Source of the DNA: a virus
Length of the DNA stretch: 16,382 nt
Strand: one strand, 5' to 3'
Virus genome (UHGV): UHGV-0181023
Made by a program: the position numbers and the translations under genes. The notes under the pieces were generated by a model. The model was given only the letters and a program-made list of their open reading frames with translations. It was not told where the DNA came from and did not search any database. Positions 4,383-11,861 of this stretch are shown here, in pieces; the first letter of the stretch is position 1, and every line of letters begins with the position of its first letter.

Positions 4383-4505
4383 CTATTTTTTCAGGAACAA
4401 CAGCGACAGCCACCGTCCGCTGCAGAACACGATGTAAAAATAACCAAGGAGCGCCAGGCCGACATTCAGGGCCGTTTCTATGGTTAGTTGTGAGTCAGTT
4501 GCCAT
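4383..4505 (-). CDS. candidate small hydrophobic (single-TM-like) peptide, 40 aa
   Basis: ATG at 4505 overlapping the end of the upstream gene; translation MATDSQLTIETALNVGLALLGYFYIVFCSGRWLSLLFLKK; weak SD (AGGT); not in ORF track because under 60 aa. Confidence 0.35.
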   Translation of the reverse strand: MATDSQLTIETALNVGLALLGYFYIVFCSGRWLSLLFLKK

Positions 4506-4743
4506 TTCTTACCTGTTTAAGTAACTGGTTGAACATAACACTTAGGGGATTGCTGTATCCAAACGGCAGATTGTTTACGCAGTACAGAATCATTTTGTTT
4601 TTTTCTCCAGTTCGTACTATTAACCCATTCCACAATAACCGTGATAATTCATTACTGATAGAAGTTGCGCTTCTTCCAAGTGCGAGGGATATATCTTCTC
4701 TACTGCAATCTGGATTTTCCTGGATATACTCGATAACGGTCAT
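4495..4743 (-). CDS. hypothetical protein, 82 aa, possible winged-helix DNA-binding fold
   Basis: ORF-track frame 4495..4785; the ATG at 4743 follows the stop of the upstream gene (4754) with AAAAGGGA between, avoiding a 32-nt overlap; fold call is weak inference from DISLALGRSATSISNELSRL. Confidence 0.55.
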   Translation of the reverse strand: MTVIEYIQENPDCSREDISLALGRSATSISNELSRLLWNGLIVRTGEKNKMILYCVNNLPFGYSNPLSVMFNQLLKQVRNGN

Positions 4744-4753
4744 GTGGTCCCTT

Positions 4754-5335
4754 TTACTTAATATCTGTTTCGGATTGCATGCCATGAGTATTCATTTCGT
4801 TAATAATTTCATCCAGAAGGATTTCAAGCCCTTCTCGACCCATATCTGAAAGAATGAAACCTTTATCAGGGGAAGTAGTGAGCATTTTCTGATAAAGAAA
4901 CAGCGCTCTTCCCATTCCTTCAGCTTCGCCGTATTTTTGAATTAAATTCCATTCAATATACTGTTGTAAGGCAAATCGAATGGGGCCGGGATATATCGTC
5001 ATAAACCCATACATCCCGTTATATACCACGGCGTGTTCAGTTGTTCCGTGTTCATTCAGGATATCAATTGTGCCGTTCTTGTCTTCTTCTTCGTTGATGA
5101 ATGTCGTCACATACAACCATCGCCACTGAGCAACCTTCATCTCAACCGGAAGTTTACCCAGTAATCCTGCTTCGTCGGCTTGCGCCAGACACTGAAGGAT
5201 ACGTAAACCTCGCACATTAGGAGTATCGAATTCTCCGGCATCCAGACGACGTATGGCGTCGTGATAATCAATCGTCATACTGCCAGTTCGTATACCATTG
5301 GCTGTTGCTTCAGCCTGGAATTCATCGTATTGCAT
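4754..5335 (-). CDS. hypothetical protein, 193 aa
   Basis: ORF track; ATG 5 nt after the stop of the upstream 60-aa gene; protein-like composition; no family recognised. Confidence 0.7.
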   Translation of the reverse strand: MQYDEFQAEATANGIRTGSMTIDYHDAIRRLDAGEFDTPNVRGLRILQCLAQADEAGLLGKLPVEMKVAQWRWLYVTTFINEEEDKNGTIDILNEHGTTEHAVVYNGMYGFMTIYPGPIRFALQQYIEWNLIQKYGEAEGMGRALFLYQKMLTTSPDKGFILSDMGREGLEILLDEIINEMNTHGMQSETDIK

Positions 5336-5340
5336 GATAT

Positions 5341-5523
5341 TTATTCCTCATCTTCATCTGCTGGTGCAATAACGTCATATCCTGCCTTTTCTGCAATAAA
5401 CAGGAATGTTGAAAGAGTTCCTACAAGTTCATCGTCATGAACATGGCGAATGAATATTACTTTCCCGTTTTTGATGGTCAGCAATACTCTGGTTTGTTCG
5501 TGTTCTGCTGTTTTCTGATGCAT
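5341..5523 (-). CDS. hypothetical small protein, 60 aa, acidic C-terminus
   Basis: ORF track; SD GGGAGAT upstream of ATG at 5523. Confidence 0.6.
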   Translation of the reverse strand: MHQKTAEHEQTRVLLTIKNGKVIFIRHVHDDELVGTLSTFLFIAEKAGYDVIAPADEDEE

Positions 5524-5525
5524 TA

Positions 5526-5639
5526 TTATCTCCCGTATGCTTTACGCAGAAATAAGCAGGCAATATGCATGTAATTTTCACCGTATTGTGCAATAAGGCA
5601 GGCGGTCTTGTGTGATGCCATATTCTTTATAAAAGTCAC
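5526..5639 (-). CDS. candidate small ORF, 37 aa, GTG start
   Basis: AGGAGG 7 nt upstream of GTG at 5639; stop TAA overlaps the SD of the 60-aa gene; translation VTFIKNMASHKTACLIAQYGENYMHIACLFLRKAYGR; could instead be an untranslated leader. Confidence 0.3.
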   Translation of the reverse strand: MTFIKNMASHKTACLIAQYGENYMHIACLFLRKAYGR

Positions 5640-5717
5640 AATAAAGCCTCCTGTGGATTAAGGTTGTAACAATCCCCGGCGATAAAACCGCAATAAACGT
5701 TCAGGGCATATTTGTTG

Positions 5718-6083
5718 TTATTGCGCTAATTCTTTTTCGGCAGCAGCTTTTGTATACTCACATGCAAAATTCAGAATTTCGCTGCCGAGTGTTTTCGTTT
5801 CGTGATTACTGGACATATGTAATACCTGTGTTGCATGCAATAAATGATAAACATTTACCGCAAATGAATCAGGCTCCAGGCAAATGCCTTCGTAATTATC
5901 TTGCTGTGAGGTTGTTTCTGTCATTGCTCCTGAAGTGCATACGAGCCTGTTTTTGACAATTCTCTTTTCTCTAATCACTATATCGGCAACATCTATTGCC
6001 TTTACAACCTCCGGGAGAAGTTCCGGGTTTGTATAATCAAAGTCATCAACATGGAGAACAGTTATGTTTTCGAACTTTTTCAT
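5718..6083 (-). CDS. hypothetical protein, 121 aa
   Basis: ORF track; SD GAGGA 4 nt upstream of ATG at 6083; no family recognised. Confidence 0.7.
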   Translation of the reverse strand: MKKFENITVLHVDDFDYTNPELLPEVVKAIDVADIVIREKRIVKNRLVCTSGAMTETTSQQDNYEGICLEPDSFAVNVYHLLHATQVLHMSSNHETKTLGSEILNFACEYTKAAAEKELAQ

Positions 6084-6211
6084 GGTTTCCTCAGCTGACT
6101 TATATGTTCTGCTATATAGCGAGTCTCAGAAGTGTTTTCATATTAAGACTGTTTCCGCAATGATTGATAAAAATGTTCGCATGTACCTTGAAGGGCGAAG
6201 CGGCGATTATG

Positions 6212-6760
6212 TCACCATTGGTATTGGTTCTTCCGCAGAAGAGCTTCGCGAGATAAGGGGCAAACTTGTTGAGATGCGTCATGGTGTTGCTGCTCCTCAC
6301 TTTTTGGTTGCTCCGGAGGAGTAACCTCGCCAGTTAACAGCCACATCGGATCGCAGCCAAGAATATTTGCCAGTGGGATAAGCATACTGATGGTTGGTTC
6401 ATACTCTCCGCTCTCCCACTGAATGATGATTTCTTCATCGAGATCGAGCAGCCTGGCGAGTTCGGCGGTTGTTAAGCCGCAGGCTTCGCGTTGGGTGCGA
6501 AGGTTAACCAGCCAGCTTTTAGGGAAGGATTGTTTTTGTTGTGCAGGAGAAGCCGCAGATAGGGCATATTCATGGATAAATTCCATTACCTCAATGCCCA
6601 GTTCCTTTGAGCGAGCACAATCCAGAAGATGGAATGTGCGTACAGCACTTAGCAAATTTGCAATATTTAATGCAAAGGAATCAAGTTCTAAGCCTTCAAG
6701 CGTAACACAGCCGCAGTTGATAAAATTAGTTGTTTCTGGAGTTGCTTTTAGTGTCTTCAT
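6212..6760 (-). CDS. XRE-family helix-turn-helix protein, 182 aa, HTH in the C-terminal half with an unknown N-terminal domain
   Basis: Segment LRTQREACGLTTAELARLLDLDEEIIIQWESGEYEPTISMLIPLANILGCDPMWLLTG matches the XRE/Cro-CI HTH pattern; first gene downstream of a near-consensus promoter. Confidence 0.75.
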   Translation of the reverse strand: MKTLKATPETTNFINCGCVTLEGLELDSFALNIANLLSAVRTFHLLDCARSKELGIEVMEFIHEYALSAASPAQQKQSFPKSWLVNLRTQREACGLTTAELARLLDLDEEIIIQWESGEYEPTISMLIPLANILGCDPMWLLTGEVTPPEQPKSEEQQHHDASQQVCPLSREALLRKNQYQW

Positions 6761-6813
6761 ATACCCACCAACAATTTTAAATTGAATTTAATCAAGTTAT
6801 AATTGATGGCGCG

Positions 6814-6842
6814 ATATTATGCTTTGAGAAATAGGCTGTCAA
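6814..6842 (-). promoter_or_regulatory. near-consensus sigma70 promoter (pL-like) driving the leftward operon: -35 TTGACA, 17-bp spacer, -10 TAATAT
   Basis: On the minus strand TTGACA (plus 6837..6842) and TAATAT (plus 6814..6819) are 17 bp apart; flanked by AATTGATG motifs at 6801..6808 and 6848..6855 and a palindrome ATCAAGTTATAATTGAT at 6791..6807. Confidence 0.5.
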
Positions 6843-6870
6843 GAAAAAATTGATGTCGTGTGTTTTAGAC

Positions 6871-6894
6871 AGAAAAAAACGGGCAAAGCCCGTT
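6871..6894 (-). terminator. rho-independent terminator downstream of the repressor gene
   Basis: On the minus strand: hairpin ACGGGC-TTT-GCCCGT followed by a run of 7 T, 12 nt after the repressor stop codon. Confidence 0.65.
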
Positions 6895-6905
6895 AAAATC
6901 AAAGA

Positions 6906-7595
6906 CTAACCAAATCTGTTTATATTGAATGGTACTGATGAGATCACTTTAGACTGGATATAAAGCAGAGCTAACCCCTCTTTTTCGATGCTCCATGGTT
7001 GATAATTGGGGTTATCAGATAACACCATGATTTTGCTTCCAATTTTTTGAAGTCTTTTCACGTAGCATTCTCCATCAAAACAAAATGCATAAATGCCATC
7101 GCCATCAAAATAAGTTACTGTCTTATCAAGAAAAAGAAGGTCGCCAGGTGAGATTGTGGGAGCCATACTGTCTCCTCTGGCGTTACCTATTTCTATATTT
7201 TTGAATGCCCGATTTCCAACAAGGCGTCGGGCATATTCAGGATCAAGTTCTATTGAGCGCACTACATCTATCAAGTCACCACGGACATGAGTTCCATCAC
7301 CGCAACTAAACTCAACATCAAGGACATTAAACACGACGCTATCTGTTCTTGTCTGGTGTTTCTCTTGCGAGGAAAAGGTTGGTGAGGAGTCTTCACCTAA
7401 GAACCAGGATTGTGGATAACCGCTAATCTCGGATAAATGCGCGAGCTTATCACTCCGTGGAAATGTTTTTCCTGTTGTCCAGTACTGCACTGATTGCGCA
7501 CTCACACCTAACTTGCGGGCCAGTTGAGCCTGAGTCCATCCTTTTGCTTTCAGCATCGCGGCTATTCGATTTTCCGTGTTTTTGACGTTCTTCAT
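6906..7595 (-). CDS. cI: CI-type prophage repressor (N-terminal HTH, C-terminal LexA-like S24 peptidase domain)
   Basis: HTH GWTQAQLARKLGVSAQSVQYW; peptidase motifs GDSMAPT (Ser) and YVKRLQ (Lys); ORF track lists a TTG at 7601, ATG at 7595 preferred; divergent from the cro-like gene. Confidence 0.9.
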   Translation of the reverse strand: MKNVKNTENRIAAMLKAKGWTQAQLARKLGVSAQSVQYWTTGKTFPRSDKLAHLSEISGYPQSWFLGEDSSPTFSSQEKHQTRTDSVVFNVLDVEFSCGDGTHVRGDLIDVVRSIELDPEYARRLVGNRAFKNIEIGNARGDSMAPTISPGDLLFLDKTVTYFDGDGIYAFCFDGECYVKRLQKIGSKIMVLSDNPNYQPWSIEKEGLALLYIQSKVISSVPFNINRFG

Positions 7596-7728
7596 GACCA
7601 AATCCTGTGGGTTTCTTTACAAGGATAAATCTTTACTTGATTTTAGTGTATTCGATCCTTTTGCAACTTGCATGTTAATTTAAACTTGATGTATTCTTGA
7701 TTTATAAAGTTAATGTTGGTGCTTTGTT
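7596..7728. promoter_or_regulatory. immunity-region operator/promoter intergenic region (PRM/PR analog) with three direct copies of an ACTTGAT-type motif
   Basis: 133-bp AT-rich spacer between divergent repressor and cro-like genes; motifs at 7635..7642 (ACTTGATT), 7684..7691 (ACTTGATG), 7695..7702 (TCTTGATT); candidate PR elements TTGATG (7687..7692) and TAATGT (7711..7716). Confidence 0.6.
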
Positions 7729-8001
7729 ATGAAAGGAAATGATTACGACAAACTTCGTGCATTAATTGCGCAAAATGCCATAGCGCGAAATCTTGGTGTG
7801 ACGCCGCAAGCGGTGAATCAGTGGTTTTCAAAAAACACAATTCCTGCTCGTTTCGTTTTACGCGTATGTGAAGTAGTTGCATGGAAGGTCACGCCACATG
7901 GCTTAAGGCCAGATCTTTATCCTCACCCTGAAGATGGAATTCCTGATTCGTTACGCAAAATTTCAAATCCAAGCTTAGCGCACACAGAGGACGAGAAGTG
8001 A
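7729..8001 (+). CDS. cro: Cro-like regulator of the YdaS/Cro-CI HTH family
   Basis: 90-aa ORF divergent from the repressor; motif LGVTPQAVNQW...LRPDLY resembles Rac YdaS-type Cro analogs. Confidence 0.8.
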   Translation: MKGNDYDKLRALIAQNAIARNLGVTPQAVNQWFSKNTIPARFVLRVCEVVAWKVTPHGLRPDLYPHPEDGIPDSLRKISNPSLAHTEDEK

Positions 8002-8041
8002 TGGTGGTGATATGAGCGAAAAAATAACTATTAAATACGAT

Positions 8042-8064
8042 GGGGCAACCATTTCGATTGCCCC
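8042..8064 (-). terminator. candidate hairpin downstream of the 8072..8365 gene (weak terminator candidate)
   Basis: Inverted repeat GGGGCAA...TTGCCCC with 9-nt loop; a T-rich tract follows on the minus strand but about 15 nt away, so not canonical. Confidence 0.25.
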
Positions 8065-8071
8065 AATCACA

Positions 8072-8365
8072 TTAGCGTTCGCTGAGAAGTTGTTGGTAAG
8101 CCTTAAAGGATGCGAACTGCATTCTACCTTCGGCATTGATTCCAATGCCTTCGCTTGTACACCAGGTGATGAACTCGGCTGTATCCGCTTCAACTTTAAT
8201 AACTCGTTGCCCGCTTCTTTCGACACGCTTAATCAATTTTTCAGCGTCGTGTTTCCACTCGGTGTAACTGTCGGAGAGCACATCAGCATCAGTAAAAATA
8301 TTTTTGAGCTCATGATACTGAATCGCATCGCGAAACCAGAATAAACCAACGGCCTGAACTTTCAT
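8072..8365 (-). CDS. hypothetical protein, 97 aa, encoded opposite to the early-right operon (moron-like)
   Basis: ATG at 8365 with AAGGAGG 6 nt upstream; protein-like charged composition; competes with the overlapping plus-strand ORF 8012..8344. Confidence 0.55.
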   Translation of the reverse strand: MKVQAVGLFWFRDAIQYHELKNIFTDADVLSDSYTEWKHDAEKLIKRVERSGQRVIKVEADTAEFITWCTSEGIGINAEGRMQFASFKAYQQLLSER

Positions 8366-10860: not shown

Positions 10861-11861
10861 GCCGTTACGCCCCCACACCGGAAGTTATGGCTATTGGTCA
10901 AATTAATATTTCCGGCAATGTTACACCTGCGAACTGGTGGAAATATATTCGACTACCCAGTGGGCGTCCGGATGCGACGGCTATCGCTCTGCTTTCAGAG
11001 ATCGTTTACTGGTACCGCCCGACAGAGGTCAGGGATGAGCACACCGGAGCGTTGCTGGGATATCGCAAGCGTTTTCAGGGCGACAAACTGCAAAGAAGCT
11101 ACCAGGCGTTTGCTGAGCAGTTTGGTTTCGGGAAAAGGGAAACCGCAGATGCGCTGAAGCGTCTGCGCGATGCAGGGTTTATTACTCTGGATTTACGCAC
11201 GGTGGAAATGCTCGATGGGGTGAAATGCAGCAATATTTTGTTTGTCGGGATCAACCCACAGGCAATTGCGGCCATCACCACACCTTCTTCTGTTTCGCCA
11301 GAAAGTAACAGCAATAATGCAATCAGCGATACAGCTATTACGTTAAAACGGAACACCCCCCGACGTCATAACGGAACAGGGGATACGCCGAATGTTGATA
11401 CAAATACAGAGATTACTACAGAGATTACTACAGAGATTACAACGGAGACTAAAAACACTATTGATGCATCCGCTGACGCGTCTGCGCCAGCGCGTTCTGC
11501 CCGACAGGAATATTCACCGGAATTTGAACAGGCCTGGCAGGAATATCCCAAACGTGCTGGTGGCAATTCCAAGTCAGCAGCCTTCAAAGCCTGGAAAGCC
11601 CGTATCAGGGAGGGAATAAAACCGGAGACCATGCTTGATGGCGTGAAGCGGTATGCCGCCTGGGTACGTGCTACAGGAAATACCGGCACACAGTTCGTGA
11701 AGCAGGCCGCGACGTTCTTTGGACCCGATCGTCACTTCGAAGATTACTGGCAACAGCCAGCCGCTCACGGAGGTGGGCGACAGCGACAGGTCGATGTCCT
11801 GGCTGGCCTGGGAGCCATGTCTGACAAATTCGGTAAATCCAGTAACAAATTGACATTCTGA
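10857..11861 (+). CDS. replication initiation / replisome organizer protein (lambda O-like architecture with iterons inside the linker-coding region)
   Basis: 334-aa ORF, ATG preceded by GGAAGGAGG; internal 12-bp tandem repeats encode TEITTEITTEITTETK; immediately followed by DnaC-like and DnaB-like genes. Confidence 0.8.
   Translation: MSRYAPTPEVMAIGQINISGNVTPANWWKYIRLPSGRPDATAIALLSEIVYWYRPTEVRDEHTGALLGYRKRFQGDKLQRSYQAFAEQFGFGKRETADALKRLRDAGFITLDLRTVEMLDGVKCSNILFVGINPQAIAAITTPSSVSPESNSNNAISDTAITLKRNTPRRHNGTGDTPNVDTNTEITTEITTEITTETKNTIDASADASAPARSARQEYSPEFEQAWQEYPKRAGGNSKSAAFKAWKARIREGIKPETMLDGVKRYAAWVRATGNTGTQFVKQAATFFGPDRHFEDYWQQPAAHGGGRQRQVDVLAGLGAMSDKFGKSSNKLTF
11406..11453. repeat. candidate replication-origin iterons: four tandem 12-bp units (ACAGAGATTACT x2, ACAGAGATTACA, degenerate ACGGAGACTAAA)
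   Basis: Read directly from sequence; two copies of AACGGAACA at 11347..11355 and 11370..11378 lie just upstream; location inside the initiator gene parallels ori-lambda inside O. Confidence 0.6.

What the first reader, a model, noticed from the sequence alone, without database searches (positions are those of the whole stretch)
5718..6760. First genes after the pL-like promoter: a 182-aa C-terminal-HTH protein plus a 121-aa unknown, not N or rex
In lambda the repressor is followed by rexAB and the pL operon starts with N. Here the repressor is followed by a terminator, then a near-consensus promoter whose first product has an unknown ~85-aa N-terminal domain fused to an XRE-type HTH (unusual domain order), followed after a 128-nt gap by a 121-aa unknown protein. 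This repressor-adjacent position is a known hotspot for exclusion and abortive-infection genes, so this pair is a candidate regulatory, toxin-antitoxin-like or defence unit.
Basis: partly seen in the sequence, partly recalled or inferred. Interest (0 to 1): 0.55.

Follow-up and report, generated by a model that had tools for sequence, protein, structure and literature searches.

The report
Phage early regulator with decoy-like partner
The first genes after the repressor of this E. coli prophage are an uncharacterised DNA-binding regulator, a small protein that copies the regulator's helical pairing domain but cannot bind DNA, and a hidden third gene on the opposite strand; the set looks like a new regulator/anti-regulator circuit and also occurs in Shiga-toxin phages.

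Summary
The described features are all present. A terminator follows the CI-type repressor, then a near-consensus promoter flanked by operator-like sites that recur at OR. The 182-aa ORF has an unknown N-domain followed by an XRE HTH, and a 121-aa ORF lies 128 nt downstream.

Two corrections apply:
- **The two proteins are related.** Residues 24-70 of the regulator and 69-115 of the small protein are the same predicted two-helix hairpin (43% identity, E 9e-10).
- **The "gap" is not empty.** A conserved 86-aa gene (phrog_6104) lies on the opposite strand, with a coding-type substitution pattern.

Comparative data show a mix-and-match family built from a hairpin (H), a ~47-aa module (X) and XRE HTHs (T). 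The regulators are H-T, H-T-T or X-T-T. HTH-less partners (H, X-H) follow them in the early-left operon of N-less lambdoid prophages, including Stx2a phages.

My best reading is an immediate-early regulator plus a decoy-like anti-regulator with SinR/SinI-like logic (confidence about 0.4). However, the partner's hairpin type usually does not match its neighbour's, so action in trans or unrelated functions remain open.

No toxin, defence, N, CII or Rex signature was found.

The parts
6878..6894 (-). Intrinsic terminator-like hairpin (AACGGGCTTTGCCCGTT followed by TTTTTTT), 12 nt after the repressor stop codon.
   Evidence: 7-bp stem, 5 GC pairs, T-run; sequence read.
6814..6842 (-). pL-like sigma-70 promoter, TTGACA-17 nt-TAATAT.
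   Evidence: 10 of 12 matches. It is the only strong minus-strand site between the repressor gene and the 182-aa ORF.
6838..6854 (.). Operator-like 17-mer GTCAAGAAAAAATTGAT, overlapping the -35 hexamer.
   Evidence: 1 mismatch to ATCAAG-N5-ATTGAT. The same motif occurs at OR (7625-7641 and 7674-7690). Also.
6791..6807 (.). Operator-like 17-mer ATCAAGTTATAATTGAT (5-bp dyad arms), about +1 to +17 of the promoter.
   Evidence: 0 mismatches.
6212..6760 (-). 182-aa early regulator (architecture H-T). Residues 1-21 are disordered. The hairpin is residues 23-74 (nt 6539-6694). The XRE HTH is residues 81-143 (nt 6332-6520). The tail, residues 144-182, is mostly disordered.
6064..6324 (+). Conserved 86-aa gene of unknown function on the opposite strand. 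It fills the '128-nt gap', overlaps the regulator's last 113 nt (convergent), and overlaps the small gene's first 20 nt (divergent). A GGAG sits 7 nt before its ATG.
   Evidence: phrog_6104 5e-48. Codon-position bias 16/7/31, 15 synonymous codon changes and 0 stops against L085. 22 invariant residues across Escherichia, Salmonella and Citrobacter homologues. Intact in 56 of the surveyed loci, truncated in 21, absent in 13.
5718..6083 (-). 121-aa HTH-less partner (architecture X-H). X module is residues 1-47 (nt 5943-6083). A disordered linker spans residues 48-66. The hairpin is residues 67-121 (nt 5721-5885). A GAGGA Shine-Dalgarno sits 5 nt before the ATG.
   Evidence: phrog_5451 4e-83. The hairpin is 43% identical to regulator residues 24-70. 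AF2 gives hairpin pLDDT about 90. The ORF is intact in 83 loci, and the internal Met54 is not conserved.
6906..7601 (-). CI-type repressor (context). Its type co-varies with the regulator's N-domain type.
   Evidence: Pfam HTH_3 + Peptidase_S24; co-variation table.
7625..7690 (.). OR region sites (7625-7641 and 7674-7690) carrying the same operator-like motif as the pL region (context).

Best explanation
The locus is the head of the CI-controlled early-left (pL) operon of an N-less lambdoid prophage.

Its first product, the 182-aa protein, is an XRE-family DNA-binding transcription factor. It oligomerises through an N-terminal two-helix hairpin. I infer that the hairpins pair into a four-helix bundle.

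The 121-aa protein is an HTH-less relative. It carries the same kind of hairpin plus a second accessory module, X, which in related phages also sits N-terminal to HTH domains.

I propose that the small protein acts as a decoy, or anti-regulator. It would form mixed hairpin bundles with hairpin-bearing regulators and so change their oligomeric state and DNA binding. This is the logic of SinR/SinI, and of AimC/AimX.

A third, conserved 86-aa gene on the opposite strand sits between the two. It is convergent with the regulator, so its transcription would oppose pL transcription.

Shown: the gene structures, the domain sharing, the modular family, the operator-like sites and the coding status of the third gene.

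Inferred: CI control of the promoter, hairpin-mediated oligomerisation, any physical interaction between the two proteins, and the regulator's target genes, which remain unknown.
For: 1. **The domain is shared.** BLASTP gives 43% identity over 47 residues, E 9e-10, and PHROG cross-hits run both ways. AF2 predicts a helix-loop-helix in both proteins: H23-45/H49-74 in the regulator and H71-89/H94-120 in the partner.

2. **The same relation recurs independently with other domain types.**
- Small protein P0148's C-domain is 57% identical to the N-domain of regulator P0097 (E 4e-18).
- The 137-aa HTH-less protein that follows regulator P0176 is 38% identical to the N-domain of regulator P0113 (E 8e-11).
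- The 66-aa hairpin-only protein that follows H-T-T regulators is 48% identical to regulator P0005's N-domain.

3. **The profile search shows free shuffling of three modules.** Architectures found are X-H, H alone, X alone, H-T, H-T-T, X-T-T and H-T-X'-T-T. H and X are therefore accessory modules of HTH regulators, and the 121-aa protein is 'accessory modules only'.

4. **The partner gene is tightly linked to the regulator.** The separation is 0-6 nt, or an ATGA overlap, in several arrangements.

6. **The promoter looks CI-controlled.** Four of six distinct matches to ATCAAG-N5-ATTGAT lie at pL and OR. The pL regions of other immunity types carry repeats matching their own OR.

7. **Precedents exist.**
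- SinI binds SinR through residues conserved between them and abolishes DNA binding (PMC3163267).
- AimX blocks AimC oligomerisation and DNA binding (bioRxiv 10.1101/2025.11.23.689978).
- Small proteins next to phage transcription factors control lysis and lysogeny (PMC10432266).
Against: - **No interaction was tested.** No complex prediction could be run.
- **The partner's hairpin type usually does not match its neighbour's N-domain.** In 80 IMG/VR loci the partner is type A in 78, while the regulator is type A in 24, C in 48, B1 in 3, B2 in 1, E in 2 and F in 1. Types C to G are not detectably homologous to the A/B hairpin family. A strictly cis SinI-like pairing would be broken in most phages.
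- **In this window the two hairpins are only 43% identical.** They could therefore be orthogonal rather than interacting.
- **No family or fold link to SinI.** Pfam SinI was not hit, and Foldseek found no significant structural neighbour.
- **The X module is poorly supported.** It is modelled with low confidence, and codon-level evidence for selection on it is weak.
- **No operator for the conserved HTH was found.** No shared inverted repeat appears across loci.
- **The surveyed loci are not independent.** Many are near-identical E. coli prophages.
Confidence: 0.4

Rival explanations
1. **Trans-acting decoy used in competition between prophages.** The HTH-less hairpin proteins do not target their own regulator. 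They target the early regulators of rival phages whose N-domain is of the matching type. This would happen during co-induction or superinfection, poisoning the rival's early programme. Regulator N-domains would diverge to escape.
For: - The partner hairpin type differs from the neighbouring regulator's type in about 55 of 79 classifiable loci.
- In three independent cases the partner's closest relative is the N-domain of a regulator from a different immunity type.
- Some phages carry arrays of several different hairpin proteins; L085 has five consecutive genes built from these modules.
- The regulator N-domain evolves about 5-10 times faster at the protein level than CI or the HTH. Between this window and L099, CI is 94% identical in amino acids, the N-domain 57% and HTH1 86%; omega is 0.024, about 0.2 and 0.056 respectively.
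- Cross-talk between co-resident prophage regulators has precedent: the Stx phage Cro represses another prophage (bioRxiv 10.1101/2025.01.01.630987).
Against: - The mismatch can equally arise from mosaic recombination at the conserved HTH1 sequence.
- The hairpin is still under purifying selection (pN 0.17 against pS 0.75), and positive selection was not shown.
- Only 19 of 292 E. coli genomes that carry the conserved HTH segment have two copies.
- The genes sit in the CI-repressed operon, so they would act only after derepression.
- No interaction data exist.
Confidence: 0.15
2. **Independent functions.** The hairpin is a generic self-association module that has been shuffled among unrelated early-left proteins. 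The regulator works alone as an early activator or repressor, possibly with a CII-like role in establishing lysogeny as the PHROG label suggests. The 121-aa protein acts on some other phage or host target through its X module.
For: - Module shuffling is extensive. X is fused to several unrelated C-terminal regions: P0160, P0166, P0172 and P0178.
- The partner type is independent of the regulator type.
- The phage has no recognisable cII after cro and no N, so an establishment or early regulator is needed from somewhere.
- phrog_4836 is labelled 'CII-like regulator'.
Against: - An HTH-less paralogue of regulator N-domains is repeatedly placed immediately downstream of the regulator. This is seen in three lineages and includes ATGA overlaps. 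Functional independence does not readily explain that.
- There is no Pfam CII match.
- The gene is in the left operon, downstream of cI, not after cro.
Confidence: 0.25
3. **Induction module of the TF-smORF kind.** The regulator controls a neighbouring small gene, either the opposite-strand 86-aa gene or the 121-aa gene. The product of that small gene inactivates the CI repressor or otherwise commits the phage to lysis.
For: - The module lies directly beside cI.
- An XRE transcription factor sits next to small proteins with no known domains.
- The 86-aa gene and the X-H gene are divergent with overlapping 5' ends.
- Described TF-smORF modules share this logic despite having no sequence similarity to one another (PMC10432266).
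- The regulator's N-domain type co-varies with CI type across six types.
Against: - The regulator appears to be CI-repressed rather than expressed in the lysogen.
- The regulator and the 86-aa gene are convergent, not divergent.
- The partner hairpin does not vary with CI type.
- The 86-aa gene is missing or truncated in many loci.
- At finer scale the N-domain diverges without CI diverging.
Confidence: 0.1
4. **Toxin-antitoxin, abortive-infection or superinfection-exclusion unit**. The HTH protein would be the antitoxin or regulator, and one of the small proteins the toxin or effector.
For: - Repressor-adjacent positions are known hotspots for exclusion genes (established knowledge: rexAB, sieB).
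- In some arrangements the HTH gene overlaps the small gene by ATGA, as in type II TA operons.
- The 86-aa opposite-strand gene could be expressed in the lysogen independently of pL, and it has no known function.
Against: - No toxin or defence family was hit in Pfam, NCBIfam or PADLOC. Only generic HTH matches such as RmrA and CapH appeared, and only over the HTH.
- The small protein is made of regulator accessory modules.
- The operon is apparently repressed in the lysogen.
- The module sits in the standard early-left operon and is followed by ordinary early-left genes.
Confidence: 0.07

Closest known systems
SinR / SinI (Bacillus subtilis repressor and anti-repressor; also SlrR/SlrA)
   Same: - An XRE-type (434/P22-like) HTH repressor oligomerises through a two-helix domain.
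- An adjacent small HTH-less protein carries a homologous helical domain.
- In Sin, that small protein forms a heterodimer which abolishes DNA binding (PMC3163267).
   Different: - The domain order is reversed: here the hairpin is N-terminal to the HTH.
- There is no sequence or Pfam relation to the SinI domain.
- The partner here carries an extra X module and lies downstream, not upstream.
- The partner's hairpin type is often not that of its neighbour.
- The host is an enterobacterial lambdoid prophage.
- No interaction has been shown.
AimC / AimX and TF-smORF modules (small anti-repressors beside phage regulators)
   Different: - Those small proteins are not paralogues of a domain of the regulator.
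- TF-smORF pairs are divergently transcribed and lie in linear plasmid-like phages between repA and telN.
- The target there is the master repressor.
- Here the regulator itself seems CI-repressed, and the partner is co-directional with it.
DicA / P22 C2 / 434-type phage repressor DNA-binding domains
   Same: The HTH (residues 81-143) is of this type:
- Pfam HTH_3 at 4.8e-11.
- PDB hits to P22 C2.
- A weak NCBIfam DicA hit that also covers the proline-rich linker after the HTH.
   Different: - It scores below the DicA family cut-off (41.5 against 101 bits).
- It has an N-terminal hairpin in place of a C-terminal oligomerisation or S24 domain.
- It is not the immunity repressor, because a CI-S24 repressor sits next door.
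- Many relatives carry two tandem HTHs.
Lambda N (the gene normally first after pL) and HK022 Nun
   Same: Same map position: the first gene of the early-left operon, immediately after pL/OL. As with N, its 5' part co-varies with the immunity region.
   Different: - There is no arginine-rich motif (read directly from the sequence).
- There is no N-family hit.
- It is a DNA-binding HTH protein, not an RNA-binding antiterminator.

Membership tests
XRE / Cro-CI-type HTH transcription factors | A five-helix HTH_3-type DNA-binding domain detectable by profile and by fold. | tested here: met
SinR/SinI-type repressor/anti-repressor pair | The regulator and the small partner share a homologous helical oligomerisation domain. 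| tested here: met
   BLASTP 43% identity, E 9e-10. Both are predicted as helix-loop-helix.
SinR/SinI-type repressor/anti-repressor pair | Membership of the SinI domain family (Pfam SinI), with the domain C-terminal to the HTH. | tested here: not met
   No SinI hit at E <= 1 for either protein. The domain is N-terminal to the HTH. Foldseek against the PDB found no significant hit.
SinR/SinI-type repressor/anti-repressor pair | The partner binds the regulator and abolishes its DNA binding. | not testable with these tools
   No complex prediction or experiment was available.
TF-smORF induction modules (Silpe et al. 2023) | The transcription factor activates a divergently transcribed neighbouring small ORF. 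| tested here: not met
   The regulator and the 121-aa gene are co-directional. The regulator and the 86-aa gene are convergent. Activation itself was not testable.
TF-smORF induction modules (Silpe et al. 2023) | The small protein inactivates the cI repressor of its own phage. | not testable with these tools
   Indirect evidence only: the partner hairpin type does not co-vary with CI type.
Type II toxin-antitoxin system with an XRE antitoxin (HigA/HipB/MqsA-like) | A recognisable toxin partner (RelE/HigB, HipA, MqsR, etc.) adjacent to the HTH antitoxin. | tested here: not met
   No toxin family was found for the 121-aa or the 86-aa protein in Pfam, NCBIfam, PADLOC or PDB. Hits to HipB and MqsA models cover only the HTH and fall far below the cut-offs.
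Known anti-phage defence systems (PADLOC) | A match to a defence-system protein model beyond a generic HTH. | tested here: not met
   The only matches are RmrA, HTH_VI and CapH models, all over residues 86-150, which is the HTH. Nothing matched the small proteins.
Lambda N-type antiterminators | An N-terminal arginine-rich RNA-binding motif, and N-family homology. | tested here: not met
   The N-terminus reads MKTLKATPETTNFINCGCV, with no Arg-rich motif. No N family was hit in Pfam or PHROGs.
Lambda CII-type establishment activators | CII family homology, and a position after cro in the right operon. | tested here: not met
   No Pfam CII hit. The gene lies in the left operon. The only link is the PHROG label 'CII-like regulator'. 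CII-like function was not testable.
RexA/RexB exclusion system | Homology to RexA or RexB, co-transcribed with cI. | tested here: not met
   No hits. A terminator separates cI from these genes.

The most novel reading that the evidence does not exclude
The hairpin is a specificity-determining oligomerisation cassette of a widespread family of phage early regulators. The HTH-less hairpin proteins (X-H, H-only, and arrays of them) are dominant-negative 'decoys' that one prophage deploys against the early regulators of rival lambdoid phages during co-induction or superinfection. That pressure drives rapid divergence and cassette swapping of the regulators' N-domains. If so, this is a protein-level arms race between co-resident prophages, including Stx2a-converting phages.
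Probability: 0.15. Interest if true: 0.85.

Novelty: new variant of a known kind. Interest (0 to 1): 0.55.

Why it matters
Regulation of lambdoid phages is taken to be textbook knowledge. Yet a sizeable group of E. coli prophages lacks N, CII and CIII and starts its early-left operon with this uncharacterised module instead. About 5% of complete E. coli genomes carry the conserved HTH segment. The group includes phiP27 (Stx2e), and Stx2a-, Stx1a- and Stx2d-converting phages.

If the regulator and its partner control the early programme or the lysis-lysogeny decision, they would influence Shiga-toxin phage induction and competition among prophages.

The work also shows annotation gaps:
- The hairpin-only gene is not annotated in GenBank Stx2a phage records.
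- PGAP calls a 68-aa fragment of the 121-aa gene.
- The opposite-strand gene is easy to miss.

Two protein modules, H and X, have no Pfam family.

Phage PhiR49_2 from ECOR13 carries a 98% identical module. It offers a direct experimental handle.

Tried and rejected
1. **Matched-pair hypothesis** (partner hairpin co-varies with the neighbouring regulator's N-domain). Rejected: 78 of 80 partners are type A whatever the regulator type.

2. **N-domain strictly tied to CI specificity.** Weakened. The association is perfect across six types. However, between this window and L099, CI is 94% identical while the N-domain is only 57% identical. Simple linkage also explains the coarse pattern.

3. **Positive selection on the N-domain.** Not shown. 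Synonymous sites are saturated, and hairpin pN is 0.17 against pS 0.75.

4. **Internal Met54 start giving a 68-aa SinI-sized protein** (the PGAP call). Met54 is not conserved, being I, S, T or N in homologues. An ATGA overlap with the upstream gene occurs in some loci. This supports the 121-aa form. Internal initiation in this particular phage is not excluded.

5. **Sequence and structure searches for the H, X and 86-aa modules.** Pfam, NCBIfam, PADLOC, PDB by phmmer or profile, and Foldseek against the PDB gave nothing significant.

6. **Homology of N-domain types C to G with the A/B hairpin family.** Not detectable by HMM.

7. **A conserved operator for the invariant HTH.** No perfect inverted repeat with arms of at least 6 bp is shared across diverse or related loci.

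8. **Rfam scan of 5300-8100.** No RNA family found.

9. **A promoter for the 86-aa gene.** A TATAAT at 6031-6036 (+) exists, but it coincides with invariant codons D16-Y17 of the X module. Its conservation is therefore uninformative.

10. **Literature searches.** No functional study of this family turned up.

11. **Co-residence of two modules in one genome.** Only 19 of 292 genomes have two copies, which is uninformative.
Full report
**Context.** The window is an E. coli lambdoid prophage of the phiP27 type.
- Reading leftwards on the minus strand, it encodes integrase, excisionase and early-left genes.
- These are followed by a CI-type repressor (6906-7601, HTH_3 + Peptidase_S24).
- On the plus strand it encodes a Cro-like protein, two Rha/Ant-like regulators, an O-like initiator, DnaC- and DnaB-like proteins, and a Q-like antiterminator.
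- The 1.3-kb region of the finding is 97.9% identical to phage PhiR49_2 from ECOR13. It is partly shared with phiP27.
- The region occurs in 305 of 5426 complete E. coli genomes.
- No N, CII, CIII or Rex homologue was detected.

**Checking the observation.**
- The repressor stop is followed by a hairpin plus T-run at 6894-6878, then TTGACA-17-TAATAT at 6842-6814, both on the minus strand.
- Two 17-mers of the form ATCAAG-N5-ATTGAT bracket this promoter. One (6838-6854) overlaps the -35 hexamer. The other (6791-6807) spans about +1 to +17.
- Allowing up to 2 mismatches, four of the six distinct matches in the whole window lie here or in the cI-cro intergenic region (7625-7641 and 7674-7690).
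- In five other immunity types, the corresponding promoter region carries repeats that match that type's own OR. For type B1, for example, the pL repeat is atcgataaaccgat and the OR repeat is atcggaaagccgat.
- The promoter is therefore very probably a repressor-controlled pL. This is an inference.
- The 182-aa ORF (6212-6760) has HTH_3 at residues 87-141 and no known family in residues 1-86.
- The 121-aa ORF (5718-6083) has no family outside PHROGs.
- The spacing between the two ORFs is 128 nt.

**First correction: the two proteins are paralogous over one domain.**
- Regulator residues 24-70 align with small-protein residues 69-115 at 43% identity (E 9e-10).
- Each protein also hits the other's PHROG family over exactly these residues.
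- AF2 models give a helix-loop-helix in both. In the regulator it is H23-45/H49-74 with pLDDT about 80. In the small protein it is H71-89/H94-120 with pLDDT about 90.
- A 50-residue two-helix hairpin cannot bury a hydrophobic core on its own. From general structural knowledge, such units normally pair into four-helix bundles. I did not test this here.
- The rest of the small protein consists of a ~47-residue N-terminal module (X, low model confidence) and a disordered linker.

**Second correction: the 'gap' holds a gene.**
- The plus-strand ORF 6064-6324 (86 aa) matches phrog_6104 at 5e-48.
- Compared with a distant locus (L085), differences fall 16/7/31 on codon positions 1/2/3 of this frame. 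There are 15 synonymous codon changes and no stops. Every other frame has stops or almost no synonymous changes.
- Homologues in E. albertii, Salmonella and Citrobacter share 22 invariant residues.
- The gene overlaps the regulator's last 113 nt, in convergent orientation.
- It also overlaps the small gene's first 20 nt, in divergent orientation.
- It is intact in 56 surveyed loci, truncated in 21 (phiP27's annotated L09 is one such remnant) and absent in 13.
- Its function is unknown; Pfam, PADLOC and PDB gave no hit.
- The regulator's disordered tail differs completely in L085, while the opposite-strand protein is conserved there. The tail may therefore be of secondary importance.

**The family is modular.**
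- Regulator homologues keep a nearly invariant first HTH, with 27 invariant columns.
- They carry at least six or seven different N-domains, an optional second HTH, and different tails.
- Types A, A'', B1 and B2 form one hairpin family with the consensus TFxGLxLxPD...N...L...G..IL.FA..YA.AA.
- Types C to G are helical but not detectably related to that family.
- A profile of the small protein, searched against 1.8 billion representative proteins, found only 44 hits. Their architectures are X-H, H alone (60-72 aa), X alone, H-T, H-T-T, X-T-T, H-T-X'-T-T and X fused to other helical domains.
- H and X are therefore interchangeable accessory modules of XRE regulators. The 121-aa protein consists of two such modules without a DNA-binding domain.
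- All contexts examined are the same: directly downstream of a CI-like repressor at the head of the early-left operon of integrase-bearing prophages. In one locus five consecutive genes are built from these modules.
- Regulators of the H-T-T form, including those of Stx2a-converting phages, are followed within 0-6 nt by a 66-aa hairpin-only protein. That gene is not annotated in the GenBank record.

**Recurrence of domain sharing.** Besides the pair in this window, there are further cases in which an HTH-less early-left protein carries a domain homologous to a regulator N-domain:
- P0148 against P0097: 57% identity, E 4e-18.
- The 137-aa protein following P0176 against P0113: 38% identity, E 8e-11.
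- The 66-aa hairpin protein against P0005: 48% identity, E 3e-8.

This recurrence is the main argument that the HTH-less proteins act through the same interactions as the regulators' N-domains.

**What argues against a simple cis pair.**
- I expected the partner's hairpin to match its neighbour's N-domain. It does not.
- In 80 IMG/VR loci, 78 partners are type A. The regulators are type A in 24, C in 48, B1 in 3, B2 in 1, E in 2 and F in 1.
- The regulator's N-domain type instead tracks the CI type perfectly across six types. The mosaic joint falls exactly at the start of the HTH.
- Adjacency, with recombination occurring in the conserved HTH sequence, could explain this association.
- At finer scale the link loosens. 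Between this window and an Stx2a phage (L099), CI is 94% identical in amino acids, the N-domain 57% and the HTH 86%.
- Nei-Gojobori estimates give omega 0.024 for CI, 0.056 for the HTH and about 0.2 for the N-domain. The hairpin is still constrained (pN 0.17 against a saturated pS of 0.75).
- The N-domain is therefore a real but fast-evolving cassette. Positive selection is not demonstrated.

**Mechanism.**
- My best explanation (confidence about 0.4) has three parts. The 182-aa protein is an immediate-early DNA-binding regulator that oligomerises through its hairpin. The 121-aa protein is a decoy-like modulator that forms mixed hairpin assemblies with such regulators. The opposite-strand gene adds a third, unknown element whose transcription would oppose pL.
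- This is the logic of SinR/SinI (PMC3163267). More loosely, it is also the logic of AimC/AimX (bioRxiv 10.1101/2025.11.23.689978) and of TF-smORF modules (PMC10432266).
- It is not a member of those families. SinI is not hit, the domain order is reversed, and the gene orientations differ from those of TF-smORF modules.
- Because the hairpin types are mostly mismatched, two rivals stay open. One is a trans-acting role against rival phages' regulators (0.15). The other is unrelated functions using a generic dimerisation module (0.25).
- A CI-inactivating induction module (0.1) and a TA/defence unit (0.07) have little support.
- The regulator's DNA targets remain unknown. No shared inverted repeat was found.

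**Verdict.**
- The sequences are already in databases as hypothetical proteins or PHROGs. To the extent of my literature searches, the following have not been described: the shared hairpin, the three-module family, its fixed position at the head of pL in N-less lambdoid phages including Stx phages, and the hidden opposite-strand gene.
- I rate it a new variant of a known kind (regulator plus oligomerisation-domain mimic), with interest 0.55.

Noticed in passing
window 5718-6083; L001 9119-9325; L099 5199-5399: Annotation is inconsistent across records. In strain S4, PGAP calls only a 68-aa product (from Met54) of the intact 121-aa ORF. The 66-aa hairpin-only gene directly after the regulator is not annotated in the Stx2a phage record LC567837.
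   Followed up: yes
L085 1983-4316: After CI, a distant prophage carries five consecutive genes built from the same modules: H-like-T (191 aa), X-T-T (205 aa), X-helical (116 aa), H-only (66 aa), and a 131-aa double-helical protein. It also has the opposite-strand phrog_6104 gene in an identical 128-nt spacing.
   Followed up: partly
regulator homologues P0005, P0044 versus window 6212-6345: The single-HTH forms end with the same GCDP(M/L)(W/S)LLTG junction that closes both HTH1 and HTH2 in the two-HTH forms. The 182-aa form therefore looks like a deletion derivative, produced by recombination between the two HTH repeats.
   Followed up: partly
window 6215-6331 (regulator residues 144-182): The proline-rich linker and the short helix after the HTH (TPPEQPK...LSREALLRK) resemble the DicA region QPTPPVEKP...LSPKELELL. 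The NCBIfam DicA model aligns through residue 159 but scores far below its cut-off.
   Followed up: no
window 11405-11448: A 12-bp unit (TACAGAGATTAC) repeats 3.7 times inside the O-like replication initiator gene and encodes TEITTEITTEIT. This is probably the iteron-type origin embedded in the initiator gene, as in lambda.
   Followed up: no
window 5341-5523 (minus strand): The 60-aa ORF after the small gene (phrog_340) also matches the C-terminal parts of two 'anti-repressor' PHROGs (phrog_4792 and phrog_2379). It is conserved downstream of the module in many loci.
   Followed up: no
window 4495-4785 (minus strand): A 96-aa MarR-like winged-helix protein sits in the early-left operon (phrog_1687). 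It has weak hits to a Ren-like exclusion PHROG and to CARF/Csa3-associated wHTH models in PADLOC.
   Followed up: no
window 8072-8365 (minus strand) versus 8012-8344 (plus strand): Just right of cro, the conserved gene is on the minus strand (phrog_4753, 97 aa, the same orientation as cI). The overlapping plus-strand 110-aa ORF has no family. A leftward transcript from here would run antisense through cro towards cI, which is reminiscent of a pRE-type arrangement.
   Followed up: no
window 7662-7672: A perfect 11-bp palindrome, TGCAACTTGCA, lies in the cI-cro intergenic region. It is distinct from the ATCAAG-type operator motif, and what binds it is unknown.
   Followed up: no
window 7685-7705: The OR region contains a direct repeat, CTTGATGTATT x1.9. 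Some CI half-sites are therefore arranged directly rather than as inverted repeats.
   Followed up: no
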